IMG/VR virus record: IMGVR_UViG_3300010362_000006
Span: 1-43,996 of that record
Origin: a virus
Reading direction: 5' to 3' (one strand)
DNA length: 43,996 nucleotides
The position numbers and the translations under genes are program-made. Within the stretch, counting starts at the first letter, position 1; each line of letters opens with the position of its first letter. Below are positions 1 to 43,445 of this stretch, piece after piece. The notes beneath the pieces were generated by a model, which was not told where the DNA came from, made no database searches, and saw only the letters and a program-made list of their open reading frames with translations.

Positions 1-123
1 GTGGATGTTCGAGCACGGCCACGACTGCGTGCGGATTCTCGGCAAGGTGAATTGGCACGGCCAGAGTTTCGACCCGCGCGATCCCGGCTACGCGCTCGGA
101 CCCGTGATCGATCTCGCGTGGGA
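1..123. repeat. Terminal overlap, identical to 43874-43996 (circular closure or terminal redundancy)
   Basis: Base-by-base comparison of both ends; an ORF continues in frame across the junction. Confidence 0.95.
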
Positions 124-11773: not shown

Positions 11774-12520
11774 TTAGAACTTGAGTCGCAATCCGCCGCC
11801 GATCTGGACACCGCCCACCTTCCGATTGGCGGTACCGCCGTAGTCCTCGAGCTTCACTGTGCCGCGGCTGACGCGGGCCGTAAACCCGAGTCCGACCACG
11901 CGATTGAAAAACACCGAGACGTCCCCGCCGCCGTGGATGCCCCACGCCGAGGCCGTCGATTTGTCGGTGTTGTAGGACTTGATCGCGACGACGTTCAAGC
12001 GACCGAGCGTGGCTTGCTGGTAGTTGATGGTCGTGATCCGTTCCTGTTCGGCGACGAAGTAGGACGGCCCGCCGAACACGCGCACCCGAAAATGCCGCGT
12101 CTCGAACGGCACCACCATCGCGTGAAGATGCCACGCCCCTTCGGTCCGCGTGAGCGACCCGTCGGTCACGGTCGCGTCGGTCGCTGAGGCGTTGAAGAAA
12201 TTCGGATTCGGCACCATGATCGCGAGGCCCGCGGTGTCTTTATGCGCGGTGCCTGCAAGGCTCACCCCGATGCCCGCGCGCCGATGGAACATGTAGCCGC
12301 CGCCGACGTCGAAGGCGCCACCACGGGGCAAGCTGTAGGCGACTGCGCCGCCACCGGGCTCCTGATAGAGCGTCACCACCTTCACGGACGTGTATTCCTT
12401 CTCCGCGGCCTGCGCGGCGCCGAAATTCACGTCTACCCATCCCTTCGCGTAATCCTGCGCGACGGCGCGACCAGCCGTGAGGCCCACCAGGGCGACAGAC
12501 ACAACAATCGTTTTCTTCAT
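11774..12520 (-). CDS. Outer-membrane beta-barrel protein with signal peptide (moron), 248 aa
   Basis: MKKTIVVSVALVGLTAGRAVAQ signal; alternating beta-strand pattern; C-terminal GGGLRLKF; GGAGA SD. Confidence 0.75.
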   Translation of the reverse strand: MKKTIVVSVALVGLTAGRAVAQDYAKGWVDVNFGAAQAAEKEYTSVKVVTLYQEPGGGAVAYSLPRGGAFDVGGGYMFHRRAGIGVSLAGTAHKDTAGLAIMVPNPNFFNASATDATVTDGSLTRTEGAWHLHAMVVPFETRHFRVRVFGGPSYFVAEQERITTINYQQATLGRLNVVAIKSYNTDKSTASAWGIHGGGDVSVFFNRVVGLGFTARVSRGTVKLEDYGGTANRKVGGVQIGGGLRLKF

Positions 12521-12532
12521 GTTCGTTTCTCC

Positions 12533-12562
12533 AAAAAGTGGGGCCGTCGTCGTGACGGCCCC
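12533..12562 (-). terminator. Intrinsic terminator for the leftward P1 operon (GGGGCCGTC-loop-GACGGCCCC then U5 in the transcript)
   Basis: 9-bp GC stem; A5 on the + strand at the lower-coordinate side; 8 nt after the SpoVG-like stop. Confidence 0.7.
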
Positions 12563-12569
12563 GGATTCG

Positions 12570-12908
12570 TTACCGTTGGTTGGCGAGTTCATCGCTGACG
12601 CGCGCTTCGACTTCGGCGTACGCCTCGAGAATCAGATCGCGGATGCGGTTGTGTGCGGCGGTATCTCTCACGGCTCGCAGCAGGGCGAAGGATCGCCGCT
12701 CGCCATTCACCGAGTACTGCCGCGACGGGAAGGTGACGTTGCGGTTGTTGCCGCCACCGCCGCGGCGCTCCCACACCGCGAACCCGATCAACTTCAGGCC
12801 GTCGAGTGGGCCGTCGCTGAAGTGCAACTCAGCGTCCGCGAGTTTCCCGACCGGCGTACCCTGGCTGTTCGGCTGAATTTTGATCGTCATCGTCATCGAG
12901 GTTTTCAT
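12570..12908 (-). CDS. SpoVG-like protein, 112 aa
   Basis: GKLADAELHFSDGPLDGLKLIGFAVWE...VTFPSRQY..GERRSFALLR...IRDLILEAY parallels the SpoVG fold pattern; GGAGA 6 nt before ATG 12908. Confidence 0.6.
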   Translation of the reverse strand: MKTSMTMTIKIQPNSQGTPVGKLADAELHFSDGPLDGLKLIGFAVWERRGGGGNNRNVTFPSRQYSVNGERRSFALLRAVRDTAAHNRIRDLILEAYAEVEARVSDELANQR

Positions 12909-13033: not shown

Positions 13034-13402
13034 TCAGTACTCCTCCCTCAGCATGATCGTGAGCAGCCGGTACGCTTTCTTCGACGCATCCTCGGCGCCC
13101 TGCTCCATCGCGGGATTCTCGAAGTAGTCGATCTTCCAGAACACCGCGACGCTCCCGACGTCCACGCGCCCGAAGTCGTGCTCGTGGTACGGGTCGTTCG
13201 GGTCGTCATCGGCGAACGTGTCGAAGGCGGCGACGGCCCGCAGGACCGCGAGCCGCACCTCCGCGTCGAGTTCGGCCACGCCTCGCGTCATCGTCACGCG
13301 GCCGACCCGTGCGGGATAGAAGAACAAGTTGCGGCGAAAGTAATCGTTGTGCGCGGCGATCACCGCCGCGCGATTCGAGCCATCAGTCATACGCAGTGCC
13401 AC
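13034..13402 (-). CDS. DUF3768-like protein, 122 aa
   Basis: DDPNDPYHEHDFGRVDVGSVAVFWKIDYFE...RLLTIMLREEY matches my recollection of DUF3768; GTG 13402 lies 7 nt after GGGAGGA. Confidence 0.6.
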   Translation of the reverse strand: MALRMTDGSNRAAVIAAHNDYFRRNLFFYPARVGRVTMTRGVAELDAEVRLAVLRAVAAFDTFADDDPNDPYHEHDFGRVDVGSVAVFWKIDYFENPAMEQGAEDASKKAYRLLTIMLREEY

Positions 13403-13404
13403 GG

Positions 13405-13608
13405 TTAGTTCCTCCCTCGGTTCAACTCGATCGAAAATTCGCACGTGTTGCAGAAGGCAACGGTGCAGCGGCGGCGAACGGTTTCCTCGCGGCCGGGCGT
13501 CACGAAGCCACCACGCACGACGACCGATTCGGTCTCGGCCTCCGTGTCGATCGTGAACGACGAGCCCTTGCAGCGGGGGCAGTGCAGGTTCGGGTGTTCG
13601 GCTACCAC
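13405..13608 (-). CDS. Zinc-ribbon protein, 67 aa
   Basis: CPRC...CNTC; GTG start with AGGGAG SD. Confidence 0.55.
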   Translation of the reverse strand: MVAEHPNLHCPRCKGSSFTIDTEAETESVVVRGGFVTPGREETVRRRCTVAFCNTCEFSIELNRGRN

Positions 13609-13743: not shown

Positions 13744-13772
13744 ACTCTATGGTCAAAATCAAGCACGGTCAA
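13744..13772 (-). promoter_or_regulatory. Promoter P1: TTGACC (13772-13767)-17 nt-TAGAGT (13749-13744)
   Basis: One of three near-identical elements; begins 1 nt after the upstream gene's stop codon. Confidence 0.7.
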
Positions 13773-14035: not shown

Positions 14036-14659
14036 CTACCGCAGGTTCCAGATCAATCGCTGTTGTTTGTCGCCACCCTTGTCGTCATCGGCCTGCGGGC
14101 GCACGTGCAGGCACCCGCTCCGAAGAAAGTGGGTGTTGCTCGCCCACACGCCCTCGACCGGCTGCGACCAGCCGCGGCCGAATCGCTGAATGCCCTTCGG
14201 CGTGAAGAGCACCACGCGGTTCTGATCCTCGTTGACGCATTCCTCGATCGTGTCGGCGCCGTAGGCGCTGACCATCGTCGCCATCGCTCGCGAGTCGGAC
14301 CAGGCACCGTCGCCCTGCTCCACGAAGTCGCGCCACTTCCACCACGTGCCGTTGTGGAACAACACCCCGCGGCGCGAGCGGCCGTCGAGTGCGCCCGGTT
14401 TCACGCGCCCGTCGATCGCGAACGGGTGGCACAGTTCCGGGCAGATGCCGCCGACGGTGGCGATGCGCGCATGGAACACGTAGGGCATCGGCAGGGTCCG
14501 CGCGAGGACGATCGCATCCTCGTCGCTCACACCCTTCGTGAACACCACGGCGCCCTTGTCGATGTAGGCGAAGCCGTTGCCGTCGGGGTTCGCAGCGATC
14601 GCGGCCTCGACCACCTTCTTCGTCAGTCGCTTCTCTTCAGCAATCAAAATCACACACAT
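14036..14659 (-). CDS. Class II (Ntn) glutamine amidotransferase-like protein, 207 aa
   Basis: Begins MC (Cys2 nucleophile); HARIATVG, CHPF, LFHNGTW, SDSR blocks; GAGAGGA SD. Confidence 0.75.
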   Translation of the reverse strand: MCVILIAEEKRLTKKVVEAAIAANPDGNGFAYIDKGAVVFTKGVSDEDAIVLARTLPMPYVFHARIATVGGICPELCHPFAIDGRVKPGALDGRSRRGVLFHNGTWWKWRDFVEQGDGAWSDSRAMATMVSAYGADTIEECVNEDQNRVVLFTPKGIQRFGRGWSQPVEGVWASNTHFLRSGCLHVRPQADDDKGGDKQQRLIWNLR

Positions 14660-14717
14660 GGTCCGTATCCTCTCGACTCGAAAAAAATTGCGGTGGAGTT
14701 CAGGTGCGACGGGCGCC

Positions 14718-15605
14718 CTAGAGGGCGTCCGTCTCGGTGCTGTCGGCCTCGACCATCGGTCCGTCGTACTTGCTCGCCATCTGTCGGAGTTTCGCGTAGA
14801 GGCGCGGCAGCGACGCGCGATCGAACACGCCGTAGGCTTTCTTGTCGCCGTTCGCCCACCACCCGAGGTGATTGATCAAGCGACGCACGGCCTGCGCGCC
14901 ATCGCCGATGCCCTCTTTCGCTTGACGCTTGGACGCGGGCGCATCCCACGGCAGCGGCGCGCTGGAGTCACACGCCTTCTGCACGATGCCGAGGCAGATT
15001 TGAATGTAGGCCGCAATCTTCGTCGCGTTGAGAGTGCCCGCGAACACGCGGAACTCGACGGTCTGGCGACGGCCCTCTGCGAGGTTTTGCAGGTTCAGCA
15101 CGTGATAACGGCTCTGGTGCGATCGCGCGATCTGATTCAGGTTCGACAGGTCCGCGAGTGCGCGATACGCCGCTTTAATCGACGCGCAATACATGTTGTG
15201 TTCGCGGGACCGGGTGCCGGTCGTCGCGAAGAGTGCTTTTTCGTGATAGGCGACGAAGCAGATCAGGCGACGAAGTTGCTGCGCAGAGCCGTTGAAGCCG
15301 ACGTGGACGTGGAACCCGGTGGAGCGGTTCACGCTGGCGCCAATCTCCACGAGTTTCGCGATCATGCGCGTTGCTTCGGCGAGGCCTTCGGCGCCGCGGA
15401 GGATTGGCGAGACGACCTCGCAGGCAACGCGCGGATATTGCACGTGGACGCTGGAATCGCTCATCAATTTCCAGCCGGGGAATCCCGCCATTTCGGCGCC
15501 GACGTGGTAGGCGCCGACGTGCCAGCCGTTCGCGTCCAGTGCCGTGCCCGGAATGCCGCACTCGATTTCGATGCCGAACGTCATGTTGCTCAGTTCCGTT
15601 GCCAT
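14718..15605 (-). CDS. Amidoligase (Amidoligase_2, glutamine-synthetase-like fold), 295 aa
   Basis: FGIEIECG, W..MSDSS...CEVVSP, STGFHVHVG, RYHVLNL, TVEFRVFAGTLN; start trimmed to ATG 15605 with AAGGGAG SD. Confidence 0.8.
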   Translation of the reverse strand: MATELSNMTFGIEIECGIPGTALDANGWHVGAYHVGAEMAGFPGWKLMSDSSVHVQYPRVACEVVSPILRGAEGLAEATRMIAKLVEIGASVNRSTGFHVHVGFNGSAQQLRRLICFVAYHEKALFATTGTRSREHNMYCASIKAAYRALADLSNLNQIARSHQSRYHVLNLQNLAEGRRQTVEFRVFAGTLNATKIAAYIQICLGIVQKACDSSAPLPWDAPASKRQAKEGIGDGAQAVRRLINHLGWWANGDKKAYGVFDRASLPRLYAKLRQMASKYDGPMVEADSTETDAL

Positions 15606-15651: not shown

Positions 15652-15680
15652 ACTCTATCGTCTGAATCAAGCACGGTCAA
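15652..15680 (-). promoter_or_regulatory. Promoter P2: TTGACC (15680-15675)-17 nt-TAGAGT (15657-15652)
   Basis: Near-identical to P1 and P3. Confidence 0.7.
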
Positions 15681-15788: not shown

Positions 15789-16313
15789 CTATGTCGCGAG
15801 GACGGCTAAAACCAGCCGGGAGACGCTGTCGGGTATCGTCAGAACGTCAGTGCAGAGGGTCAAATCCGGCGCCGCAGGCGCCTCGTACGGGTCCGAGACG
15901 CCGGTGAAGTTGGGAATCTCTCCCGCGATCGCGCGCCGATAGAGACCTTTCACGTCCCGCGCGGTCACGACCTCGAGCGGCGCCGCGACGTAGACCTCGA
16001 GGAACCGCACACCATCGACCTGCGCCTGCTCTCGCGCGAGTCGACGCGCCTCCGCGTACGGCGAGATCATCGCGACGAAGACGATCACGCCGTGCCGCGC
16101 AATCCGCGTCGCGACCCAGGCGACGCGCGCCACGTTGAGATTGCGATCACGGGCGGTGTAGCCGAGTTCCGGCGCCAGATGCGGACGGACGACGTCCGCA
16201 TCGAGCAGGTCCACCGCGAGCCCATACGAGGCCAGCTCGTCGCGCGCCGCCGCCGCGACGGTCGACTTGCCCGCACCCGAGAGTCCGGTCAACCAGGCGA
16301 TCGTGCCCCTCAC
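15789..16313 (-). CDS. cysC: Adenylylsulfate (APS) kinase, 174 aa
   Basis: GLSGAGKST P-loop, LDADVVR, ARDRNLNVARV, ISPY, RDVKGLYRRA..GEIPNFTGVSDPYEAP. Confidence 0.88.
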   Translation of the reverse strand: MRGTIAWLTGLSGAGKSTVAAAARDELASYGLAVDLLDADVVRPHLAPELGYTARDRNLNVARVAWVATRIARHGVIVFVAMISPYAEARRLAREQAQVDGVRFLEVYVAAPLEVVTARDVKGLYRRAIAGEIPNFTGVSDPYEAPAAPDLTLCTDVLTIPDSVSRLVLAVLAT

Positions 16314-16918
16314 CGCTTGCCCTTCGACCAGTTGCGATCGGCCACCTCGAGGTCGCCGCGGCGCAGCCGCTTCAAATCTTCGGCGAACAGCGACGGCCCG
16401 CGCGGGCTGAGCGCCGCATCTTCGGTCAGAAAGAAATCGCGTCGACGCAGGCCACGTCGCTTGCCCTGCATGGTGTGGCAGTCGTCGGTGTAGTCGGGCA
16501 ACGTCTCGACCTTCGTCGCGGCGAGCAGGGTCTCGACGGCCTTGTCCGACACGCCCTTCGCTTCGTGGACGAGGTTCGCGAGGTGATCGGCATCACGGCT
16601 CTTCGCCGCGGTGCAGAGCAGAATCACCGCCTTCGCCATGAAGACCCGCCCGGCCAACTTCCAGCGATCCTTGTCGGTCATTTCCTTGCGCACGAGATCC
16701 CACGAGTCGTAGAGTGCCTTCACCTCGCCCGTCACCAGGGCCGCGCAATCCTCGGCGCTGATAATCAGCAAACGCCGCCACGCGTAGGCGCCGAACCCAC
16801 TGGTGTGCAGTTCCATCGCGCAGTAACCCGCCATTCGCACGTCGTTGCGGCGGATGCCCTTCTGCATCGCCGACACCACGCGCGCTAAATCGTGCCCTCT
16901 CTTCGTTGTCAGTCGCAT
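16310..16918 (-). CDS. Stand-alone MgsA/RarA C-terminal-domain-like protein, 202 aa
   Basis: SAMQKGIRRNDVRMAGYCAMEL...RRLLIISAEDCA...LLCTAAKSRD...LPDYTDDCH parallels the MgsA_C pattern; GGAGGAG 8 nt before ATG 16918; GTGA-coupled to cysC. Confidence 0.5.
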   Translation of the reverse strand: MRLTTKRGHDLARVVSAMQKGIRRNDVRMAGYCAMELHTSGFGAYAWRRLLIISAEDCAALVTGEVKALYDSWDLVRKEMTDKDRWKLAGRVFMAKAVILLCTAAKSRDADHLANLVHEAKGVSDKAVETLLAATKVETLPDYTDDCHTMQGKRRGLRRRDFFLTEDAALSPRGPSLFAEDLKRLRRGDLEVADRNWSKGKR

Positions 16919-16943
16919 CAGTTGATCTCCTCCAGAAGCATCA

Positions 16944-16972
16944 ACTTTATCGTCGGAATCAAGAGCGGTCAA
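16944..16972 (-). promoter_or_regulatory. Promoter P3: TTGACC (16972-16967)-17 nt-TAAAGT (16949-16944)
   Basis: Near-identical to P1 and P2. Confidence 0.7.
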
Positions 16973-17031
16973 ACGGTTTTCGGCGAGGACGATCGGGGTC
17001 CTCGGGGCGAAAGCTCATACGAAAGTCCGCG

Positions 17032-17835
17032 TCAGTAGCCGAAGGGCTCGAGCGTCAGCCGATGACGATCGAGCAGCTCGCGATCCGTGACGTGGCCGGT
17101 CCGGCTCGCGTCGATGACGAACGGCACGCGGAGCCGCTGCCCGAGAAAGGCGCTCAATTCGTCGAGAACGACGATCGGGTCCGTGACCAGGCGCTCGAAC
17201 CGGACGGTGGTGGCGCGCGGACCGAGGCGCCAGACCTGCAGCTCGGCGCGCTCGACGTATTCGCGCCACCAATCGACGGCGTCCGCGGTGTCCGCGGCCC
17301 GAAGATTCGCGATCGCACGGTGCTGGCGCACCAGGCGAGCCACCGGCGCCCGACCGGCTCGCCACCGCGCCTCAACCCGCCGACGACGATCCGTGAGGCT
17401 CGCGGCCACCTCGAGCCCGTTCCGCAGCACGTGAATGACCTGCGCCTCGGGCCAGATCCGCAACCAAAACGGCAGCGTGAAGGTGGTCCGCGGGTCCTTA
17501 AACCCGTAGCGCCGCGGGCGCCGCACCAGGCGCCAGCCCCAATAGCGACGTGCGCTCCACCCCTCGACGTGCGCGCGCACCACCTGGCTGACCGCATCGG
17601 CGAGGAACGCATCCGCCAGCAGACGATCCACACCGCCGCCGCCGGCGGTCTCGATGCTGGCGCCGGCGCTCTGAAGAATCCAGCGATTCACCGCTTGCAG
17701 TGATCGACTCTCGTGATTCGACTCGACGTCGGCGCCCATGAAGACGCCGTTGCCTGCGAGGATGCGCGCGACCAGGCTGGTCCCCGACCGACTCGAGCCG
17801 ATGACGATCACGGGACTAGAGCATGTCGGTCCCAT
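17032..17835 (-). CDS. PAPS-dependent sulfotransferase, 267 aa
   Basis: 5'-PSB-like VIVIGSSRSGTSLVARIL near the N-terminus; KDPRTTFTLPFW; 3'-PB-like LRNGLEVAAS. Confidence 0.75.
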   Translation of the reverse strand: MGPTCSSPVIVIGSSRSGTSLVARILAGNGVFMGADVESNHESRSLQAVNRWILQSAGASIETAGGGGVDRLLADAFLADAVSQVVRAHVEGWSARRYWGWRLVRRPRRYGFKDPRTTFTLPFWLRIWPEAQVIHVLRNGLEVAASLTDRRRRVEARWRAGRAPVARLVRQHRAIANLRAADTADAVDWWREYVERAELQVWRLGPRATTVRFERLVTDPIVVLDELSAFLGQRLRVPFVIDASRTGHVTDRELLDRHRLTLEPFGY

Positions 17836-18562
17836 GCTGCCGCCGCTCGACTGAGATTTTGGAAATGAACGTGCCTTTGGCCCACCGCGTCCGCAAGTGC
17901 GCGCCCCACTTGCGATGCAGGTACGCGAACTCGACGTCGTGCGCGGCCTTCGTGCGATTCACCGCGTTGCCGCCCGCTTGCTTCCACCGATCGTGCGCGA
18001 ACGCGAACCGGTTGTCCTGCCAGATGATCCGAAATTTTCTGAGGTGTTGCAGCGCGAAGTCAGTATCCGCGTGCAGCTTCAACTTCGGGTCGTAGCGCAG
18101 CTCGCGGCCGACGACGCCCATCGGCCCATCGACCCACCCGTTCAAGTTGAAAGGCTGAAGAGGCGTGAACTTCCGCACGTCCCACGCCTGGTTGAAGCCG
18201 CACAGATGCGCGCCCGCGGCCTCGGCGCACTCGATGGTGTTGACGAGCAGGTCCCAAATCAGCGGCGGCGCGATGTGATTCGCGTACGTGCCGGTCAGGC
18301 CGTACGCCCCGACGATATCATCCGGCACCATGTAGACCAGGGGACTCGACACGTGGTCGAGAATCCACTGACGGACCGGACCGATGCCGGTCACGTTGTT
18401 CGGGTGCAACAGCAGCTCGCGCTTCGTGAGGCCGTGGTACTCGTCGCGCTCTTCCTCGGCCACGCACAACGTCGCCTCGGGGAAGAACCGCCCGCTCTGC
18501 CGCGGCCACGTGCGCGCCCGACGACGACTCATGCACACCAGGGCGATCGCGGGCGTGATCAT
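17816..18562 (-). CDS. GT-A-fold-like (nucleotide-sugar transferase-like) protein, 248 aa
   Basis: Start trimmed to the ATGA-coupled ATG 18562; order IALVCMSRRR...GIGPVRQWILDH...VYMVPDDIV resembles the GT-A N-terminal half with a DxD-like motif. Weak, motif-level call only. Confidence 0.35.
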   Translation of the reverse strand: MITPAIALVCMSRRRARTWPRQSGRFFPEATLCVAEEERDEYHGLTKRELLLHPNNVTGIGPVRQWILDHVSSPLVYMVPDDIVGAYGLTGTYANHIAPPLIWDLLVNTIECAEAAGAHLCGFNQAWDVRKFTPLQPFNLNGWVDGPMGVVGRELRYDPKLKLHADTDFALQHLRKFRIIWQDNRFAFAHDRWKQAGGNAVNRTKAAHDVEFAYLHRKWGAHLRTRWAKGTFISKISVERRQHGTDML

Positions 18563-19239
18563 TTCTTCCGTTTGCCGTCGAGAATCTCGAACAGCCGGTC
18601 GGCGCCGATGACGCGTCCGATGCCGATCTTGCGGCGACCCCCGAGCGTCACGCCCTCGCGTCGGATGCCCAACAAATCGCAGGCGCGCGTCCACGCGTGG
18701 CTGTCCCGAAACACCACCATGATGTAGTCGTGGTGCTCGAAGGGCTGACACTCCATCTCCGGCAACGTCTCGTCGGCGACGACGTCCTCGCTCGCGTTGA
18801 GCAATTTCGCCCACTCCGGGGGACGGAAAAAGTCCTCGAGGTTCGCGCCGCTCTCTTGCAGACTCTTCAACGTCGCCGGTTCCCACGCCAGGCCGACTTC
18901 GGTGACACGGTTGTCGGCGATGGCGAGTTCGCGCGCCGCACTGTCCGACAAATCGAGATCGGTCCGCTGCACCACCACGAGCTGCGAGCCGTCGGTCTGC
19001 ACCACCACGAGCTCGGGCGCACCACTCTCGCCCGCGGCCTCCACGGTCTTGTTCCCCGCGATCAACTGCCCGTGTTTGTCGACCAGGACGGAGCGACCGA
19101 ACCCGTACTCGCGAATCGAGGTGTGGAGCAGCGCGCGACCACGCGTCGTACCCTTGTTCGCGTTGTTCGGGTCGGGCTTGAGGTCTGCGAGGGACCGCAG
19201 GGCACCGTTGGCTGGCGCCGCGGTGGATTTTCGCTTCAA
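18559..19239 (-). CDS. ParB/Srx-fold N-terminal domain protein, 226 aa
   Basis: LKPDPNNANKGT...LLHTSIREYGFGRSVLVDKHGQLIAGNKTVEAA; TTG 19239 preceded by GTAGGGGGG. Confidence 0.65.
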   Translation of the reverse strand: MKRKSTAAPANGALRSLADLKPDPNNANKGTTRGRALLHTSIREYGFGRSVLVDKHGQLIAGNKTVEAAGESGAPELVVVQTDGSQLVVVQRTDLDLSDSAARELAIADNRVTEVGLAWEPATLKSLQESGANLEDFFRPPEWAKLLNASEDVVADETLPEMECQPFEHHDYIMVVFRDSHAWTRACDLLGIRREGVTLGGRRKIGIGRVIGADRLFEILDGKRKK

Positions 19240-19379
19240 GTTGCCCCCCCTACGCCAATTTCGCGACGGCCTACGCGAGGGGCCTGAGTGGTTTGGCGCA
19301 CCCCACGCGCCAGCGATTGACAAGCCCCCCCGGTCCCGCGACGCGCGACGAACGACGCGCGCATCGTACCACCACACCG

Positions 19380-19550
19380 ACCAACCGACGATCACCACGA
19401 CGACACGGACATACCGACGACTCACCAACGCACACACACACACACACCGACCAACTCACTCACGCACACTCACACCCACACACACTGACTAACTGACGCA
19501 CGCACTGACGAACTGAGACGCACGACACACTCACGCGCGGAGTAACATAC
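19380..19550. repeat. Strand-asymmetric C+A-rich low-complexity tract with a 16-nt (CA)8 run (19431-19446) and four ACTGA(C/G) repeats (19484-19517); candidate cos/pac or terS-binding region
   Basis: Read directly; lies between the divergent ParB-like gene and terS. Confidence 0.5.
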
Positions 19551-19556
19551 GCACGC

Positions 19557-20048
19557 ATGCGTGGGCGGAAGCCAAAGCCGACGCAACTGAAGCGACTCGC
19601 CGGGAATCCTGGTCGCAGGCCGCTCAACACTGACGAACCCGAGCATCCTGCGCTCTCGAGCGACGTCCCACGTGAACTCACGCACGACGAGGACGCACGA
19701 CTCGAATGGTTGCGCCTCGAGCCACTCCTGAAGCGCAGTCGGCAAGTGACGGAGGCGGATCGGGCCGCACTGATGGCCTGCTGTCTGGAGTGGAGCCGGT
19801 ATCTCCGCGCAACGGCGGAAGTGCGGAACAAAGGGCCGTTGATTGCGTCGCCGAACGGCTACCCCATCATCAACCCGTGGCTGTCCATCGCCACAAAGGC
19901 ACTCGCCGGATGTAACAAACTCTGGCCCGAGTTGGGCCTGACGCCGTCCAGTCGCGCACGGGTGAAGAGCGACGGACCACCACCCGCCGGTGATGCCTTC
20001 TCGGAGTTCGACATTCCACCTGAACTTGGGCCGGTGACGGAGCACTGA
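19557..20048 (+). CDS. Terminase small subunit, P27 family, 163 aa
   Basis: MRGRKPKPTQLKRLAGNPGRRPLN...NPWLSIA...LGLTPSSRARV. Confidence 0.85.
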   Translation: MRGRKPKPTQLKRLAGNPGRRPLNTDEPEHPALSSDVPRELTHDEDARLEWLRLEPLLKRSRQVTEADRAALMACCLEWSRYLRATAEVRNKGPLIASPNGYPIINPWLSIATKALAGCNKLWPELGLTPSSRARVKSDGPPPAGDAFSEFDIPPELGPVTEH

Positions 20049-20052
20049 GGCG

Positions 20053-21717
20053 TTGCATCCGATCGATGCGTATGCGCGTGCGGTGATCAGCGGCGAACGA
20101 CCAGCAGGCAAATACCACCGACTCGCCTGTGAGCGGCACGAACGCGATCGGGCGCGACAGTGGACGCCCGACTTTCCGTACGTCCTGGTCTACAAACTCG
20201 CGGATCGCTTCGTCCGCTTCACGCAACAGCTCAAGCATTACAAGGGCGAATGGGCCGGACGGCGCATCGTACTCGAGGCGCACCAACTGTTTCGCCTCGG
20301 CTCCGTGATCGCCTGGGTCCATCGCGACACGGGACTCCGTCGCTTCCGTACCGCCTACAACGAACTGCCGAGGAAGAATGGGAAGTCGCTCGAGGCCGCG
20401 ACGATTGCGTTGTACATCTCGTTTTTCGATGGCGAACCCGGTGCCGAAGGCTATTGCATCGCGACGAAGCGCGACCAGGCGAAGATCGTGTTCAACGACG
20501 CCAAGCGGTTGACGGAATCGAGCGCGCCACTCCGATCGCGATTGTCGGTGCTCGCGGCCAACCTGCATCACTACGAGAGCGCCTCGAAGCTCGAGCCACT
20601 CGGCGCTGACTACGACTCCACCGATGGCCTCAACCCGAATCTCATCATCACGGATGAGTTTCACGCGCAAAAGAATCGCGACCTGCTCGACGTCATGGAG
20701 ACGGCGACTGGTGCGCGCCGTCAACCGCTCAATTTTCAGATCACCACCGCGGGCAATGACCCGGTCTCGCCCTGCGGCGACCAGCACGACTACGCCTGCA
20801 AAATCCTCGACCAGGTGATTGTTGACGAGACGTTCTTCGCCTTCATCGCCCACGCCGAACCAACCGACGACTGGATGGCGGAAGCGACCTGGCGGAAAGC
20901 GAATCCCAATTACGGCGTGTCGGTGAAGCCGGACGATCTGCTCGCGCTCGCCACTAAAGCCCGCAACATGGAGGCGGCGACGGCCGCGTTCAAACAAAAA
21001 CGGCTGAACTTGTGGGTCAACGCGGTCTTGCCGTGGCTGGCCCTCGATGGCTGGCGCCTCGGGCAATCGGCGTGGACCCTTGAGGACATGGCGGGCGCGG
21101 CCTGCTGGATTGGCATCGACCTCAGTTCAAAAATTGACTTGACAGCCGCCGTGGTGGTGTTTCCGCCGACCGACGAGCGCGAGACCTGGCGCCTGTGGGT
21201 GTGGGCGCTCACGCCGGCGGACACCCTCGAGCAGCGCGAACGGCGCGACCGCGCACCCTACGCGCAATGGGTCAAAGAGGGTTATCTCAGCACCAACCCC
21301 GGCAATCGCATTGACCAGGGCGCCGTGCTCGAGTTCGTGCAGCGGATGTCGGCACACTTCGACGTGCAGCGCATTGGGGTGGACCCGTGGAATGCGGGCA
21401 ATCTTGTGCAGGCGCTCACCGACGACGGCTTTCAGGTGGTGGAGATTCCGCAAACGATGGCGCAGATGAGTGCGCCCTCGAAAGACTTCGAGGCCGACGT
21501 GCTCGACGGGCTCGTCGACGCGGCGCACAACCCACTGATGCAGTGGTGCGTCAGCAACGTCGTCGTGCAACGCGATGGGAAGGACAATATTTACCCGATT
21601 AAGAAAAAGAGCCGTGGCAGAATTGACCCGGTGATCGCTACGCTCATGGGCCGTAAGCTCGCCGCGATCGATCTCGCCGTGCCGCTCGCGGGCGAACCCG
21701 ATCTGGTGGTCGCATGA
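20053..21717 (+). CDS. Terminase large subunit, 554 aa (TTG start)
   Basis: Size, position and ATPase/nuclease-like blocks (ELPRKNGKS, LIITDEFH, GIDLS...DLTA). Confidence 0.88.
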   Translation: MHPIDAYARAVISGERPAGKYHRLACERHERDRARQWTPDFPYVLVYKLADRFVRFTQQLKHYKGEWAGRRIVLEAHQLFRLGSVIAWVHRDTGLRRFRTAYNELPRKNGKSLEAATIALYISFFDGEPGAEGYCIATKRDQAKIVFNDAKRLTESSAPLRSRLSVLAANLHHYESASKLEPLGADYDSTDGLNPNLIITDEFHAQKNRDLLDVMETATGARRQPLNFQITTAGNDPVSPCGDQHDYACKILDQVIVDETFFAFIAHAEPTDDWMAEATWRKANPNYGVSVKPDDLLALATKARNMEAATAAFKQKRLNLWVNAVLPWLALDGWRLGQSAWTLEDMAGAACWIGIDLSSKIDLTAAVVVFPPTDERETWRLWVWALTPADTLEQRERRDRAPYAQWVKEGYLSTNPGNRIDQGAVLEFVQRMSAHFDVQRIGVDPWNAGNLVQALTDDGFQVVEIPQTMAQMSAPSKDFEADVLDGLVDAAHNPLMQWCVSNVVVQRDGKDNIYPIKKKSRGRIDPVIATLMGRKLAAIDLAVPLAGEPDLVVA

Positions 21718-28575: not shown

Positions 28576-28987
28576 TTCCTCCGACATCGACAGCGCCCTC
28601 GTGGCGAAGCTCTCGGGCGACGTGCAACTGACGACGCTCATGCCCGACGGCGTGTTCTTCGACCAGGCGCCGCAGGGCGCGACGAAATTCGTGCTGCTGT
28701 CGATCGTCGACGAAGCGGATTTCCCGATCTTTCAGAAGCGCGGATTTGAAGATCACACGTATCTCGTCAAGGCGGTGGAACTGTCCTCGAGCGGCGCCAA
28801 CGTGAAGACTGCGGCGGCGCGGATCGACGCGCTGCTCGAGGGCGGCACCCTCACCGTCACCGGCTACAACGTCATCGTGATGCAGCGGGTGGCGCGCGTG
28901 CGCGCGACCGAAGTCGATGACGTCGATCCCTCCATTCGCTGGCAGCACCGCGGCGGTCGCTACGAGATCGTCGCCACGGCACCATGA
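28568..28987 (+). CDS. Tail completion protein (DUF3168-like), 139 aa
   Basis: Position and size. Confidence 0.55.
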   Translation: MADSSDIDSALVAKLSGDVQLTTLMPDGVFFDQAPQGATKFVLLSIVDEADFPIFQKRGFEDHTYLVKAVELSSSGANVKTAAARIDALLEGGTLTVTGYNVIVMQRVARVRATEVDDVDPSIRWQHRGGRYEIVATAP

Positions 28988-29637
28988 TGATTCCGTCACA
29001 CCATAGCGACGTCGACGAATATGGCTACTGCCCACAGCACGGTATCCCGGTGCGTCCGAATCAGGGATGTTCCGGCTGCGTCACCGGGCTTCCGTCGATC
29101 AATCCCGCACGGCGCCTGAATGTCGGGTGCGGCGAGTGGCCGTTGCTCTACTACACCAATCTCGACGCCGACCCGAAGGCGAACGCCGACCTCTATGTGA
29201 AAGTGCCGCCGCTGCCATTTGACGACGGCGGGCTCGATGACATCTACGCAGGCCATTTTCTCGAGCACCTCACGCCCGAGGACGCCGACGAATTTTTGCG
29301 CGAGTGTTTCCGCTGTCTCGTGCCCGGTGGACGGCTCGGCATCGTCGTGCCCGACACGCGGATCGTGATGGAACGGTGGCTTGGCGGCGATCCGGGGTCG
29401 ATCGAATATCCCGCGGGCACGTTTCGGCCACGCGCCGACCTCGACACGATCTGCGAGCTGTTTCTCTACAGCACCGTGCAGGAGTCGCCGCATCGCTGGT
29501 CCTACGACTCGACCACGCTCGCGCGCCGCATCACGCGCGCAGGGTTCACGCTGACGCAGGAGATTCACCGCTACACCGACATCCGCATCCCGGTGGGCGC
29601 GTGGTACCAGTGCGGATGGGACGCGGTGAAGCCGTGA
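28984..29637 (+). CDS. Class I SAM-dependent methyltransferase with N-terminal Cys cluster, 217 aa
   Basis: LNVGCG motif I, LPFDDGGLDDIYAGHFLEHL, LVPGGRLGIVVPD. Confidence 0.75.
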   Translation: MMIPSHHSDVDEYGYCPQHGIPVRPNQGCSGCVTGLPSINPARRLNVGCGEWPLLYYTNLDADPKANADLYVKVPPLPFDDGGLDDIYAGHFLEHLTPEDADEFLRECFRCLVPGGRLGIVVPDTRIVMERWLGGDPGSIEYPAGTFRPRADLDTICELFLYSTVQESPHRWSYDSTTLARRITRAGFTLTQEIHRYTDIRIPVGAWYQCGWDAVKP

Positions 29638-30749
29638 AGGTGCTGCTCGTCCACCCTGGCGCGAGCTGGTCGACCACCGACGTCGAGGCCGGCCTGCGGT
29701 ACGGGCTCACGCACCACGGCGTGCAGGTCGTCCGGTACCGCCTGGACGAACGGATCGATCGCTCGAAACGCTGGCTCTATGCCAGTTGGCGCCACGCGAA
29801 GAAACGCAACCCGACGCTCGAGCGGCCGACTATCGGCGATTTCTTCTACCAGGCGGGTGTCGGCGCGCTCGAGATGGCCCTACGACACAACGTCGATGCC
29901 GTGGTCATCGTCAGTGCGATGTTCCTGCACCCCGACGTGATCATTCTGCTGAAACGCGCGGGCCTCTTCGTCACGGTGCTCTTCACCGAAAGCCCGTACG
30001 ACCAGGTGCAGGAGTTGAAGATCGCGCCACTGGTCGACGGCTGCTGGACCTGCGAACGCTCATCGGTCCCGGCGTTCCGGGCGGTCAACCCCCGGAGCGG
30101 CTATCTCCCGCACGCGTGGCACCCCGAACGCCATCGACCAGGCGCGCAACCCGAAGACGATCTGGTCATCGGGCACGACGTCGTCTTCGTCGGGTCGGCG
30201 TTTCGTGAACGCATCGACTGGTTCTCGGCGATCGACTGGCGCGGCATCGACCTCGGGCTCTATGGCGAATGGTCCGCGCTCGGGTCCCGCCACTCGCTGC
30301 GGCACTTCGTCCGCGAAGGCCCGGTCACGAATGTCAAAACGGCGGCGCTCTACCGACGCGCCAAAATCGGCCTCAACCTCTATCGCACGTCACAGGGATG
30401 GGGCAAAGACGCTCCGTCCATCGCGCACGCAGAATCCTTAAACCCGCGGGCCTACGAGCTCGCGGCGTGTGGCGCCTTCCACCTGAGCACGCGGCGGGCG
30501 GAAGTCGGCGAAGTCTTCGGCGATCACGTCCCGACCTTCGGGGACGCGACCGAAGCTGAATCTCTCATCCGCGCCTGGCTGGCCGACGACGCACACCGAC
30601 AGCGCGTCGCCTCGAGCCTTCCGGCCTGTGTGGCCGAGTCGTCTTGGGTCGAACGGGCGACCCGAGTCATCGGAGACCTGCAAACGCTCACGCGCCCACC
30701 AACGATCGGCGCGATCGCGCTCGCCGCGGTCGGCACTGGGGCGGCGTGA
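29634..30749 (+). CDS. GT-B glycosyltransferase, CgeB/DUF3880-like, 371 aa
   Basis: GTGA coupling; HDVVFVGSAF, LGLYGEWS, AKIGLNLYR, SLNPRAYELAACGAF. Confidence 0.65.
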   Translation: MKVLLVHPGASWSTTDVEAGLRYGLTHHGVQVVRYRLDERIDRSKRWLYASWRHAKKRNPTLERPTIGDFFYQAGVGALEMALRHNVDAVVIVSAMFLHPDVIILLKRAGLFVTVLFTESPYDQVQELKIAPLVDGCWTCERSSVPAFRAVNPRSGYLPHAWHPERHRPGAQPEDDLVIGHDVVFVGSAFRERIDWFSAIDWRGIDLGLYGEWSALGSRHSLRHFVREGPVTNVKTAALYRRAKIGLNLYRTSQGWGKDAPSIAHAESLNPRAYELAACGAFHLSTRRAEVGEVFGDHVPTFGDATEAESLIRAWLADDAHRQRVASSLPACVAESSWVERATRVIGDLQTLTRPPTIGAIALAAVGTGAA

Positions 30750-43334: not shown

Positions 43335-43445
43335 CTGTGACCTAGCCTGTCACTCGCTTTTCGGGCCTTCGCCAATGGCCGACGGACGCCCGCGCGCTCG
43401 ACGCGCGCTTGTTCGTCGTCAACCACTCACCCTGCGGAGGCACCT

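What the first reader, a model, noticed from the sequence alone, without database searches (positions are those of the whole stretch)
15789..19239. Phage-encoded sulfation module: APS kinase plus sulfotransferase next to GT-A-like and ParB/Srx-like genes
Seen: cysC has the full APS kinase motif set (GLSGAGKST, LDADVVR, KGLY, FTGVSDPYEAP). The 267-aa sulfotransferase has PAPS 5'-PSB (GSSRSGTS) and 3'-PB-like (RNGLEVAAS) motifs. Both lie in consecutive leftward transcription units. The sulfotransferase overlaps a 248-aa GT-A-like ORF, which is ATGA-coupled to a ParB-fold protein. Established: APS kinase makes PAPS, the universal sulfate donor for such sulfotransferases. No ATP sulfurylase is present, so APS would have to come from the host. 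Inference: the phage boosts PAPS and sulfates an unknown acceptor. Candidates are a glycan on the host surface (lysogenic conversion or superinfection exclusion), a virion glycan made by the structural-module glycosyltransferase, a peptide tyrosine as in the RaxST-type precedent, or a small molecule. A dedicated donor-plus-transferase pair in a phage is rare.
Basis: partly seen in the sequence, partly recalled or inferred. Interest (0 to 1): 0.78.

Follow-up and report, generated by a model that had tools for sequence, protein, structure and literature searches.

The report
Phage sulfation genes in glycosylation cassette
A complete temperate phage genome carries a real PAPS-making kinase and a sulfotransferase, both inserted into a widespread phage gene cassette (ParB-like protein, DNA-type glycosyltransferase, RarA-like protein) beside the DNA-packaging genes, so the likeliest product is a sulfated sugar on a phage macromolecule, probably its DNA, which would be a new kind of modification.

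Summary
**Observation: confirmed.**
- 15789-16313(-) is a bona fide APS kinase. It passes the TIGR00455 and PF01583 cut-offs.
- 17032-17835(-) is a Sulfotransfer_3 enzyme. Its PAPS-binding and catalytic residues are intact and the model is confident.
- The ATGA coupling and the 20-nt overlap with the GT-A and ParB-like genes are as described.
- The window is a complete circular 43.9-kb phage genome without ATP sulfurylase.

**New context.**
- Every close relative of the sulfotransferase whose context could be read sits in the same array: ParB-like, TAGT-type glycosyltransferase, sulfotransferase, RarA C-terminal-like protein.
- A second, unrelated sulfotransferase lineage sits at the same position after the GT in another phage.
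- The ParB-GT pair was next to each other in 78 of 80 IMG/VR loci. It usually lies beside the terminase genes, often with the RarA_C-like gene, DNA ligase and an amidoligase/GAT-like pair.
- Other cassettes carry UDP-glucose dehydrogenase or an epimerase instead of the sulfotransferase.
- The GT's nearest structures are phage DNA glycosyltransferases.
- The ParB domain is 48% identical to one paired with a C5 DNA methylase.

**Best reading.** The sulfotransferase tailors the GT's sugar, most likely on phage DNA, using PAPS made by the phage CysC.

**Main gap.** No base hydroxymethylating enzyme was found, so the acceptor is unproven.

The parts
18559..19239 (-). ParB/Srx-like protein (226 aa). 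It has an N-terminal nucleotide-binding-type ParB domain, an acidic linker and a conserved C-terminal domain, with no recognisable HTH. It is the first gene of the cassette and is ATGA-coupled to the GT.
   Evidence: phrog_620 E=2e-18 and phrog_498 'DNA methyltransferase' E=5e-17. The profile matches the Spo0J/ParB N-terminal domain in PDB at E=1e-6. The C-terminal motif PEMELQPFEHYDY...GLGRV is conserved. The N-terminal domain is 48.5% identical to a ParB-only gene that overlaps a C5 DNA methylase in Aphanizomenon phage CL131. In 78 of 80 IMG/VR loci the GT lies immediately downstream.
17816..18562 (-). GT-A glycosyltransferase (248 aa) of the TAGT / T-even beta-glucosyl-HMC-alpha-glucosyltransferase structural family.
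   Evidence: Pfam TAGT E=1.9e-4, 21.9 bits, below the 27.5 cut-off; phrog_842 E=5e-9. Homologues 62-66% identical carry PF20691 in precomputed annotation. The AlphaFold model has pLDDT 84. Best BFVD matches are TAGT-named phage proteins and a T4-like beta-alpha-GT, TM 0.68-0.78. PDB GT-A matches reach only TM about 0.5. D81-D82 are invariant.
17032..17835 (-). PAPS-dependent sulfotransferase (267 aa). Its start overlaps the end of the GT gene by 20 nt.
   Evidence: PF13469 E=1.8e-18. PAPS-binding and catalytic residues are invariant. Model pLDDT is 93.7. Fold matches are TPST1/2, then the OLS/CurM activating STs, Stf1/9 and HS 3-OSTs. All close relatives with readable context lie between the GT and the RarA_C-like gene.
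16944..16972 (-). Promoter-like 29-nt repeat (copy 1 of 3), upstream of the RarA_C-like gene.
   Evidence: TTGACC-17-TAAAGT. Three copies of the 29-mer occur in the window where 0 are expected.
16310..16918 (-). Stand-alone RarA/MgsA C-terminal-half protein (202 aa from ATG 16918, with RBS GGAGG). It has no AAA+ module.
   Evidence: phrog_16866 E=4e-41. 438 homologues were found, many carrying PF12002 MgsA_C or named RarA. The profile matches PDB 3pvs RarA residues 249-377 and 2r9g. It lies within a few kb of ParB-GT in at least 54 of 80 loci. The start was taken from the gene call and the sequence.
15789..16313 (-). APS kinase CysC (174 aa). Its start overlaps the stop of the RarA_C-like gene (GTGA).
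   Evidence: PF01583 E=4.7e-53. TIGR00455 scores 188.6 against a cut-off of 138.7. Motifs can be read directly. Among the ST-bearing cassettes it is present only in this phage.
15652..15680 (-). Promoter-like 29-nt repeat (copy 2 of 3), upstream of the amidoligase.
14718..15605 (-). Amidoligase_2 (295 aa from ATG 15605). A conserved distal member of the cassette.
   Evidence: PF12224 E=4e-28. A homologue follows ParB-GT-RarA_C in at least 24 of 80 IMG/VR loci and in L004 and L007.
14036..14659 (-). 207-aa protein beginning Met-Cys, the conserved partner of the amidoligase. From my own knowledge of the Pfam Amidoligase_2 description, this partner is a GATase-like N-terminal-Cys thiol peptidase.
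   Evidence: No Pfam hit. Homologues lie directly after the amidoligase in L007 and in at least 14 IMG/VR loci.
19557..21717 (+). Terminase small (19557-20048) and large (20053-21717) subunits, divergent from the cassette. This is conserved context.
   Evidence: PF05119, PF03354 and PF20441. Terminase genes lie next to ParB-GT in 46 of 80 IMG/VR loci and in Streptococcus, Clostridium and Porphyromonas phages.

Best explanation
The APS kinase and the sulfotransferase are accessory 'tailoring' genes. They are inserted into a conserved, cytosolic phage cassette that sits beside the terminase genes. The cassette consists of a DBD-less ParB-like protein, a TAGT-family GT-A glycosyltransferase and a RarA C-terminal-like protein, often followed by DNA ligase and an Amidoligase_2/GAT-like pair.

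Proposed mechanism:
1. Host CysDN supplies APS.
2. The phage CysC converts APS to PAPS. This step follows from established enzymology.
3. The GT, helped by its ParB partner, puts a sugar from a host nucleotide-sugar onto a macromolecular acceptor. The acceptor is most likely the phage's own DNA. This is inferred from the family, the fold and the context.
4. The sulfotransferase, translationally overlapped with the GT, transfers sulfate from PAPS to that sugar or to its nucleotide-sugar precursor. This is inferred from invariant synteny and from independent recruitment of a second ST lineage.

The result would be an anionic sulfo-glycosyl modification. It would be the functional counterpart of the glucuronic-acid route implied by the UDP-glucose dehydrogenase genes in sister cassettes. 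Its presumed role is to protect the DNA from host nucleases or otherwise change how the DNA is handled around packaging.

The chemical identity of the acceptor atom is unknown, because no 5-methylpyrimidine dioxygenase or hydroxymethylase is encoded.

Graded confidence:
- The enzymes are an active APS kinase and a PAPS-dependent sulfotransferase: about 0.9.
- The ST acts on the GT's sugar: about 0.7.
- The acceptor is DNA: about 0.4.
For: Enzyme identities.

Coupling of the ST to the GT:
- Every ST at least 47% identical whose context could be read lies between the GT and the RarA_C-like gene. The readable contexts are the window itself with L003 (a Logan contig carrying the identical proteins), L004, L005, L007/L008 and L234/L235.
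- For one further relative the placement is inferred only from matching contig lengths: ST P0003, RarA_C P0124 and GT P0247 each list a longest contig of 3250 bp.
- An ST of a different lineage lies directly after the GT in L037.
- The same slot holds UDP-glucose dehydrogenase, an SDR epimerase or a second GT in other cassettes.

The cassette is conserved: ParB is followed by the GT in 78 of 80 loci, the RarA_C-like gene is present in at least 54, and the amidoligase in at least 24.

Leaning towards DNA:
- The GT's best structural neighbours are TAGT proteins and the T-even beta-alpha-GT, TM 0.68-0.78.
- Its HMM hits are TAGT and phrog_842.
- The ParB domain is 48.5% identical to a ParB-only gene that overlaps a C5 DNA methylase, and it hits the ParB-methyltransferase family phrog_498.
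- DBD-less phage ParBs were shown experimentally to activate a DNA-modifying dioxygenase on dsDNA (PMC13229309).
- Phage GTs put diverse sugars, including an acidic Kdo, on DNA (bioRxiv 10.1101/2023.12.21.572611).
- Neighbours are DNA enzymes: C5 methylase, Mom and Dam in L004, N6/N4 methylase in L007, DNA ligase in 20 loci, and ArdC and RadC.
- The pair lies next to the terminase genes in phages of Proteobacteria, Actinobacteria, Firmicutes and Bacteroidota, so the acceptor should be something universal.
- All cassette proteins lack transmembrane segments, and the GT, the ST and the RarA_C-like protein are basic, with pI 9.2-11.2.
Against: - No TET/JBP-type dioxygenase and no thymidylate-synthase-like hydroxymethylase was found. 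This holds for the complete genome and for the recurrent neighbours of related cassettes. All known phage DNA glycosylation needs a hydroxymethyl acceptor.
- Pyle et al. themselves consider GTs without a neighbouring 5mYOX or ThyS less likely to act on DNA.
- The window GT scores below Pfam's TAGT threshold.
- The ST's closest solved folds are protein-tyrosine and acyl-ACP 'activating' sulfotransferases, not carbohydrate ones.
- The basic pI is not shared by the L037 ST, which has pI 6.6.
- UDP-glucose dehydrogenase and epimerase partners are equally typical of polysaccharide pathways.
- No sulfated nucleic-acid modification is known. Neither paper on phage DNA glycosylation mentions a sulfotransferase.
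- Everything about the acceptor is inferred from context.
Confidence: 0.45

Rival explanations
1. The GT and ST build or decorate a host envelope glycan (LPS, capsule or EPS). This would change the cell surface of lysogens or infected cells, giving lysogenic conversion or superinfection exclusion, with the phage CysC boosting PAPS.
For: - The phage is temperate: it has an integrase.
- The GT-A fold also resembles polysaccharide GTs such as K4CP, LARGE1 and TarP.
- Some distant ST relatives are named 'LPS sulfotransferase NodH'.
- Sister cassettes carry UDP-glucose dehydrogenase or an epimerase, which are typical of polysaccharide loci.
- A moron-like outer-membrane beta-barrel gene lies nearby.
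Against: - No transmembrane segments in any cassette protein.
- No priming GT, flippase, polymerase or exporter was found.
- The cassette is obligatorily linked to a ParB-like and a RarA_C-like protein and to the terminase genes.
- It occurs in lytic Microbacterium phages that lack integrase and repressor.
- It occurs in phages of Gram-positive, Gram-negative and Bacteroidota hosts, whose envelopes differ completely.
- The GT's structural neighbours among viral proteins are DNA GTs at a much higher TM than the polysaccharide GTs.
Confidence: 0.15
2. The cassette glycosylates and sulfates a protein. The target could be a virion or packaging protein, as in mycobacteriophage capsid glycosylation, or a host protein.
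For: - The cassette always lies next to the terminase and structural genes.
- The window encodes a second GT plus a methyltransferase inside the structural module, so virion glycosylation is plausible in this phage.
- GT-A enzymes can glycosylate proteins (own knowledge).
Against: - Nothing accounts for the ParB-like domain, which is otherwise found with DNA methylases, or for the RarA_C and DNA ligase neighbours.
- Virion proteins are not conserved across the four host phyla in which the ParB-GT pair occurs.
- The cassette is transcribed divergently from the structural operon.
Confidence: 0.12
3. The ST is a tyrosine (peptide or protein) sulfotransferase of the TPST/RaxST kind and works independently of the GT.
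For: TPST1, TPST2 and tick TPST are the best PDB fold matches (TM 0.56-0.65, E about 1e-7). The only PDB sequence hit is a TPST.
Against: - The similarity is modest (17-20% identity). The next hits are acyl-ACP, glycolipid and heparan sulfotransferases.
- Invariant synteny and start/stop overlap with the GT, plus independent recruitment of another ST lineage to the same place, argue for coupling to the GT.
- No RaxX-like peptide gene or secretion genes were identified.
Confidence: 0.07
4. Sulfation is an activation step rather than the final mark. The ST would convert a hydroxyl (on a sugar or on a hydroxymethyl base) into a sulfate leaving group. That group would then be displaced or eliminated, with the amidoligase/GAT-like pair supplying an amine. 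This is analogous to 5-hmdU DNA kinase in thymidine hypermodification and to the CurM/OLS activating sulfotransferases.
For: - The activating STs OLS (4gox), CurM (4gbm) and SgdX2 are among the fold matches.
- The amidoligase plus GAT-like genes are conserved downstream.
- GATases and kinases are reported in T-hypermodification clusters linked to ParB (PMC13229309).
Against: - The amidoligase/GAT pair is present in most cassettes that lack any ST or kinase, so it does not depend on sulfation.
- L004 and L005 have the ST but not the full set.
- No hydroxymethyl source is encoded.
Confidence: 0.08

Closest known systems
Post-replicative phage DNA sugar hypermodification (C5-MT/5mYOX plus TAGT-type and other GTs; Burke et al. 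2021, PMC8256090; Pyle et al. 2023, bioRxiv 10.1101/2023.12.21.572611), and T-even hmC glucosylation including the beta-glucosyl-HMC-alpha-glucosyltransferase
   Same: - A GT-A enzyme of the same structural and HMM family.
- ParB-like and terminase neighbours are reported for such GTs.
- Sugar-tailoring enzymes sit in the clusters.
- An acidic sugar (Kdo) on DNA has been seen.
   Different: - No 5mYOX, C5-MT or hydroxymethylase in this complete genome.
- A sulfotransferase/APS kinase pair is not mentioned in those papers.
- The obligate trio with a RarA C-terminal-like protein is not described there.
ParB-dependent phage thymine dioxygenases (O'Toole et al. 2026, PMC13229309)
   Same: A short phage ParB homologue with an N-terminal nucleotide-binding-type domain and a C-terminal domain but no obvious DNA-binding domain. 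It is encoded immediately next to a modification enzyme, near GTs, GATases and the terminase.
   Different: Here the cognate neighbour is a glycosyltransferase in 78 of 80 loci, not a dioxygenase. The GxxR motif reads GNKT in the window's clade. Activation of a GT by ParB has not been shown by anyone.
Bacterial donor-plus-transferase sulfation modules: NodPQ/NodH (Nod factor), RaxPQ/RaxST (RaxX tyrosine sulfation) and mycobacterial CysC/Stf enzymes (own knowledge)
   Same: A dedicated PAPS supply gene sits beside a PAPS-dependent sulfotransferase. Bacterial relatives of this ST also sit next to cysC in several genomes (L061, L074, L078, L080, L096).
   Different: - Only the kinase half of PAPS synthesis is present, without ATP sulfurylase.
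- The module is phage-borne.
- The ST is embedded in a ParB-GT cassette.
- There are no export genes and no peptide-substrate gene.
RarA/MgsA replication-associated recombination protein
   Same: The C-terminal MgsA_C region is conserved, including the SALQK.IRR and SAEDxx motifs.
   Different: It lacks the whole AAA+ ATPase module. It is a stand-alone protein of about 200 aa, specific to phage cassettes.

Membership tests
APS kinase (CysC; PF01583 / TIGR00455) | Scores above the curated family thresholds over the full domain | tested here: met
   PF01583 scores 179.7 bits against 21.1, covering profile positions 1-151 of 152. TIGR00455 scores 188.6 against 138.7.
APS kinase (CysC; PF01583 / TIGR00455) | P-loop plus APS-binding motifs (LDGD-like, ISP, KGLY, FTG..PYE) | tested here: met
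   GLSGAGKST, LDADVVR, MISPY, KGLY and FTGVSDPYEAP can be read in the translation.
APS kinase (CysC; PF01583 / TIGR00455) | Phosphorylates APS to PAPS | not testable with these tools
   Needs an enzyme assay.
PAPS-dependent sulfotransferase (Sulfotransfer_3, PF13469) | Family HMM above threshold, and the sulfotransferase fold | tested here: met
   68.1 bits against 27. Model pLDDT 93.7. Foldseek matches are all sulfotransferases, with TPST at TM about 0.6.
PAPS-dependent sulfotransferase (Sulfotransfer_3, PF13469) | 5'-phosphosulfate-binding loop and 3'-phosphate-binding Arg...Ser, plus a catalytic base and Lys | tested here: met
   R16, S17, G18, T19, E42, K113, R138 and S146 are invariant in 52 sequences. 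K113, R138 and S146 align to the TPST NKDP, IRDG and VHS elements. Assigning E42 as the catalytic base is an inference.
TAGT / phage DNA-base glycosyltransferases (PF20691; T-even beta-alpha-GT) | Pfam TAGT gathering threshold | tested here: inconclusive
   The window GT scores 21.9 bits against 27.5. Homologues 51-66% identical carry PF20691 in precomputed annotation.
TAGT / phage DNA-base glycosyltransferases (PF20691; T-even beta-alpha-GT) | GT-A fold with an acidic metal/nucleotide-sugar motif, and nearest structures in the same family | tested here: met
   Model pLDDT 84. D81-D82 are invariant. Top BFVD matches are TAGT-named proteins and a beta-glucosyl-HMC-alpha-GT, TM 0.68-0.78.
TAGT / phage DNA-base glycosyltransferases (PF20691; T-even beta-alpha-GT) | Co-occurs with an enzyme that makes the hydroxymethyl acceptor (TET/JBP 5mYOX or a dNMP hydroxymethylase) | tested here: not met
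   None was found in the complete circular genome. None was found among the recurrent neighbours of related cassettes that were scanned. Pfam-level sensitivity only.
TAGT / phage DNA-base glycosyltransferases (PF20691; T-even beta-alpha-GT) | Transfers sugar to DNA | not testable with these tools
   Needs nucleoside LC-MS or an in vitro assay.
5mYOX-associated (DBD-less) phage ParB activators | ParB/Srx N-terminal domain plus a C-terminal domain, without the central HTH DNA-binding domain | tested here: inconclusive
   Only profile positions 14-109 match the Spo0J/ParB N-terminal domain. The protein is 226 aa, with an acidic linker and a conserved C-terminal domain. No structure was predicted and no direct comparison with ParB176 was possible, because those sequences are not held.
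5mYOX-associated (DBD-less) phage ParB activators | The cognate partner is a 5-methylpyrimidine dioxygenase | tested here: not met
   The partner is the GT in 78 of 80 loci.
RarA/MgsA | AAA+ ATPase module followed by MgsA_C | tested here: not met
   Only the C-terminal half is present. It aligns to 3pvs residues 249-377. No AAA Pfam hit.
NodPQ-NodH / RaxPQ-RaxST type sulfation modules | Complete PAPS synthesis (ATP sulfurylase plus APS kinase) with an ST and an exported acceptor | tested here: not met
   APS kinase and ST are present. No ATP sulfurylase, exporter or substrate-peptide gene was found in the complete genome.

The most novel reading that the evidence does not exclude
The ParB-TAGT pair glycosylates phage DNA without any TET/JBP- or thymidylate-synthase-type hydroxymethylation, so it would use a new acceptor chemistry on DNA. 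In this phage lineage the sugar is then O-sulfated from phage-made PAPS. That would be the first sulfated nucleic-acid modification, installed by a cassette found in phages of at least four bacterial phyla.
Probability: 0.3. Interest if true: 0.9.

Novelty: new variant of a known kind. Interest (0 to 1): 0.74.

Why it matters
Phage DNA hypermodifications drive the arms race with restriction and CRISPR systems, and they are a source of tools for enzymology and sequencing. Sulfation has never been seen on a nucleic acid. Phage-encoded PAPS-dependent sulfation of any acceptor is almost undocumented.

This locus links a sulfotransferase, and in one genome its own PAPS supply, to a compact gene set that can be expressed directly. 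That makes a clear yes/no experiment possible.

Independently of the sulfation genes, the analysis exposes a widespread cassette that was not described in the papers read here: ParB-like, TAGT-like GT and RarA_C-like, often with DNA ligase and an amidoligase/GAT-like pair, beside the terminase genes. No hydroxylase was found with it. Working out its acceptor would either extend the chemistry of DNA glycosylation or reveal a new macromolecular target of phage glycosyltransferases. It would also test whether DBD-less ParBs are general activators of DNA-modifying enzymes.

Tried and rejected
- **Megablast of 13-22 kb against GenBank phages:** no match.
- **Single-sequence related-locus scans** with the ST and the RarA_C-like protein: nothing confirmed. 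Alignments were needed.
- **PDB sequence searches** with the ST and the GT: uninformative.
- **Search for a hidden base hydroxylase:** Pfam scans of essentially all ORFs of the complete genome, and of unknown neighbours in L004, L037 and L147, found no TET_JBP or thymidylate synthase. This does not exclude a very divergent enzyme.
- **Sequences of published 5mYOX and ParB176** for direct comparison: not in the held supplements. Iyer et al. 2009 and 2013 are not held.
- **RarA_C-like protein as a disguised dioxygenase or ATPase:** rejected, because it is the helical MgsA_C half only.
- **'cysC' as a DNA-base kinase like 5-HMUDK:** rejected, because it passes the APS-kinase equivalog threshold with all APS motifs.
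- **Basic pI of the ST as evidence for a polyanionic acceptor:** the phage clade has pI 9.9-11.3 against a median of 9.0 for relatives, but the independent L037 ST has pI 6.6, so this is weak.
- **IMG/VR, GTDB-genome and metagenome scans for more close ST relatives:** only L234 and L235 were added. All other hits are generic sulfotransferases at 38% identity or less.
- **The exhaustive representative-protein search** was not used, because it gives no genomic context.

Full report
**1. What is there**

The window is a complete, circularly assembled temperate phage genome.
- Its last ~123 nt repeat its first, giving a unique length of 43,873 bp.
- It encodes an integrase, RusA, a P27-type small terminase, a large terminase, portal, protease and capsid.
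- TerL is at most 42% identical to the TerL of Marinobacter, Burkholderia, Pseudomonas and Ralstonia phages. Together with 65% GC, this suggests a proteobacterial host.

Divergent from the terminase genes lies a leftward gene array:

| Gene | Coordinates |
|---|---|
| ParB-like | 18559-19239 |
| GT-A glycosyltransferase | 17816-18562 |
| Sulfotransferase | 17032-17835 |
| RarA C-terminal-like protein | 16310-16918 |
| APS kinase | 15789-16313 |
| Amidoligase_2 | 14718-15605 |
| 207-aa Met-Cys protein | 14036-14659 |

Gene junctions and transcription signals:
- ParB/GT are ATGA-coupled.
- GT/ST overlap by 20 nt.
- The stop of the RarA_C-like gene overlaps the cysC start.
- A 29-nt promoter-like repeat (TTGACCG..CTTGATT..GAC.ATARAGT) occurs three times on this strand, where 0 are expected. 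The copies precede the RarA_C-like gene, the amidoligase and a downstream small gene.

**2.

APS kinase:
- It passes the curated APS-kinase thresholds: PF01583 at 179.7 bits and TIGR00455 at 188.6 bits against 138.7.

Sulfotransferase:
- It is a Sulfotransfer_3 member at 68 bits.
- The 5'-PSB loop RSGT, E42, K113-D-P, R138 and S146 are invariant across 52 homologues.
- These align with the corresponding TPST elements.
- The model is confident, with pLDDT 93.7.

Context:
- No ATP sulfurylase is encoded.
- Rarity is real. There is no ST homologue in 50,697 GenBank phage records, and APS kinase appears in only five of them.

**3. The sulfotransferase is not a free-standing module**

Its close relatives (47-83% identity) are few. 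Scans of IMG/VR, one genome per GTDB species and JGI metagenomes added only two more.

Every close relative whose context could be read lies in the same order, [ParB]-[GT]-[ST]-[RarA_C-like]:
- the window itself, and L003, a Logan contig with identical proteins;
- L004;
- L005;
- L007/L008;
- L234/L235.

This rests. One further relative (ST P0003 with RarA_C P0124 and GT P0247) is placed on a single 3250-bp contig only by inference, because the three proteins list the same longest-contig length. I did not look it up.

In IMG/VR contig 3300028840_002119 (L037) an ST of a different lineage sits directly after the homologous GT. Its best matches are other sulfotransferases, not the window clade. 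Two independent recruitments to one position, plus the start/stop overlap, argue that the ST works on what the GT makes or uses.

cysC is present only in the window's version of the ST cassette. A different ParB-GT phage (L147) carries an APS kinase next to TerL.

**4. The cassette is widespread**

A scan with the GT alignment returned 27 IMG/VR loci. ParB lies immediately upstream in nearly all of them, and the RarA_C-like gene is nearby in most.

A scan with the ParB alignment returned 80 loci:

| Feature | Loci |
|---|---|
| GT directly downstream of ParB | 78 (the other two are truncated) |
| RarA_C-like gene present | at least 54 |
| Amidoligase_2 present | at least 24 |
| Partner 207-aa protein present | at least 14 |
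| DNA ligase present | 20 |
| Divergent GpA-type terminase upstream | 46 |

The ParB-GT pair next to the terminase genes also occurs in:
- Microbacterium cluster EC phages, which are lytic (ParB, small ORF, GT, UDP-glucose dehydrogenase-like, 'AAA-ATPase' = RarA_C);
- a Streptococcus prophage and a Clostridium phage;
- a Porphyromonas phage, where the GT is annotated beta-glucosyl-HMC-alpha-glucosyltransferase.

The position after the GT is variable. It can hold nothing, an ST, UDP-glucose dehydrogenase, an SDR epimerase/dehydratase or a second GT. Full-length UDP-glucose dehydrogenase accompanies eight loci. Sulfation and uronic-acid formation are therefore alternative ways to make the transferred sugar anionic. 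That last point is an inference.

**5. What the parts are**

GT:
- The model (pLDDT 84) is a GT-A fold.
- Solved GT-A structures match only at TM about 0.5.
- Predicted viral structures named TET-associated glycosyltransferase, and a T4-like beta-glucosyl-HMC-alpha-glucosyltransferase, match at TM 0.68-0.78.
- HMM hits agree: TAGT (below threshold for the window protein, above it for 51-66%-identical homologues) and phrog_842.

ParB-like protein:
- It has a ParB N-terminal domain (PDB Spo0J/ParB, E=1e-6), an acidic linker and a conserved C-terminal domain, with no detectable HTH.
- Its N-terminal domain is 48.5% identical to a ParB-only gene that overlaps a C5 cytosine DNA methylase in Aphanizomenon phage CL131.
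- It also hits the ParB-methyltransferase PHROG.
- A 2026 study showed that such DBD-less phage ParBs activate a neighbouring thymine dioxygenase specifically on dsDNA. That study lists GTs, ParBs and terminases as the commonest neighbours of phage 5mYOXs (PMC13229309).

RarA_C-like protein:
- The 202-aa protein is the C-terminal half of RarA/MgsA without the ATPase.

Sulfotransferase fold:
- The nearest solved folds are TPST1/2, then the 'activating' sulfotransferases of olefin synthase and curacin, the Stf enzymes and heparan 3-OSTs.
- Fold alone does not fix the acceptor class.

General properties:
- All cassette proteins lack transmembrane segments.
- The GT, the ST and the RarA_C-like protein are basic.

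**6. Most likely mechanism**

1. Host ATP sulfurylase provides APS.
2. The phage CysC makes PAPS.
3. The GT, with its ParB partner, glycosylates a cytosolic macromolecule.
4. The ST sulfates that sugar.

I consider DNA the most likely acceptor, for these reasons:
- the GT's family;
- the other partners of this ParB type (DNA methylases, and in the literature a DNA dioxygenase);
- the DNA-enzyme neighbourhood: C5 methylase, Mom and Dam in L004, N6/N4 methylase in L007, plus ligase, ArdC and RadC;
- the invariant placement beside the packaging genes;
- the presence of the pair in phages of four phyla, which calls for a universal substrate.

Phage GTs are already known to place varied sugars, including an acidic one, on DNA.

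**7. The weak point**

Known DNA glycosylation needs 5-hydroxymethyl-pyrimidine. I found no TET/JBP dioxygenase, hydroxymethylase or C5 methylase in this complete genome. I also found no recurrent candidate in the related cassettes.

Pyle et al. note that about 65% of phage GT hits lack such a neighbour, and they regard those as less obviously DNA-directed.

So one of three things is true:
- the acceptor chemistry on DNA is new;
- a hydroxylase is too divergent for Pfam to detect;
- the target is not DNA.

I put about 0.7 on 'the ST tailors the GT's sugar' and about 0.4 on 'the acceptor is DNA'. The rivals are an envelope glycan, a virion or other protein, tyrosine sulfation, and sulfation as a leaving-group activation. 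Each is weighed in its own section of this report.

**8. Novelty**

Neither paper on phage DNA glycosylation or ParB-dependent oxidation mentions a sulfotransferase. A full-text search for sulfotransferase together with phage DNA hypermodification returned nothing. The only paper found that mentions the Microbacterium genes lists them without interpretation.

I classify the finding as a new variant of a known kind, namely phage GT-based macromolecule modification clusters with tailoring enzymes. There is a real chance, about 0.3, that it is something categorically new: sulfated DNA glycans installed without hydroxymethylation.

Noticed in passing
window 1-123 and 43874-43996: The two ends of the window are identical over about 123 nt, so the contig is a circular, complete phage genome with a unique length of 43,873 bp. 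The ORFs 43341-43994 and 5-1021 are one gene across the junction (about 482-517 aa, no Pfam family).
   Followed up: yes
window 13744-13772, 15652-15680, 16944-16972 (minus strand): Three copies of a 29-nt sigma-70-like promoter repeat (TTGACCG..CTTGATT..GAC.ATARAGT), where 0 are expected by chance. Each lies just upstream of a gene start. They divide the leftward array into separate units: [ParB-GT-ST], [RarA_C-CysC], [amidoligase-207aa-83aa] and [67aa-DUF3768...].
   Followed up: partly
window 28984-30749: Inside the virion structural module lie a SAM methyltransferase (28984-29637) and a Glyco_trans_1_2 glycosyltransferase (within 29304-30749). This is a second glycosylation system, probably directed at the virion and unrelated to the ParB-GT cassette.
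   Followed up: no
window 39895-42295: A radical SAM protein (435 aa) and a methyltransferase-like protein (368 aa) directly follow the 1471-aa tail protein gene. This cargo is unusual at the end of a tail module.
   Followed up: no
window 19240-19556: The divergent intergenic region between ParB and the small terminase is strongly C/A-rich on the + strand. It has (CA)n and imperfect 26-38-nt tandem units. It may be a promoter region or a packaging site.
   Followed up: partly
window 14036-15605; L171-L231 and others: The Amidoligase_2 gene plus a Met-Cys (GATase-like) partner is a conserved distal part of the ParB-GT-RarA_C cassette: at least 24 of 80 loci have the amidoligase and at least 14 also have the partner. 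An ATP-dependent DNA ligase often lies between them (20 loci). The function of this pair in phages is unknown.
   Followed up: partly
L147 7032-7757 (IMGVR_UViG_3300033141_005366): Another ParB-GT phage encodes a genuine APS kinase (PF01583, E=6e-43) between the large terminase and the portal. No sulfotransferase was found in the 12.6 kb that was fetched.
   Followed up: partly
L004 1-16000 (ENA ERZ27257124 k141_1348568): A sister phage with ParB-GT-ST-RarA_C carries many further candidate DNA- and sugar-modifying genes: Dam, a 560-aa C5 methylase, Mom, a cytidine-deaminase-like 297-aa protein, a GT2 plus a PIG-L deacetylase, and another GT-A-like protein.
   Followed up: no
L316 2471-4002 (Aphanizomenon phage CL131 gp004/gp003): A 182-aa gene annotated 'DNA methylase N-4/N-6' is really only a ParB N-terminal domain, 48.5% identical to the window's. 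It overlaps the start of a C5 cytosine DNA methyltransferase, so it is a ParB plus DNA-modifying-enzyme pair analogous to ParB plus GT.
   Followed up: partly
window 11774-12592 and 13034-13444: Two further genes lie at the distal end of the leftward array: a signal-peptide-bearing outer-membrane beta-barrel-like protein (weak OMP_b-brl hit), which is a likely moron, and a DUF3768 protein.
   Followed up: no
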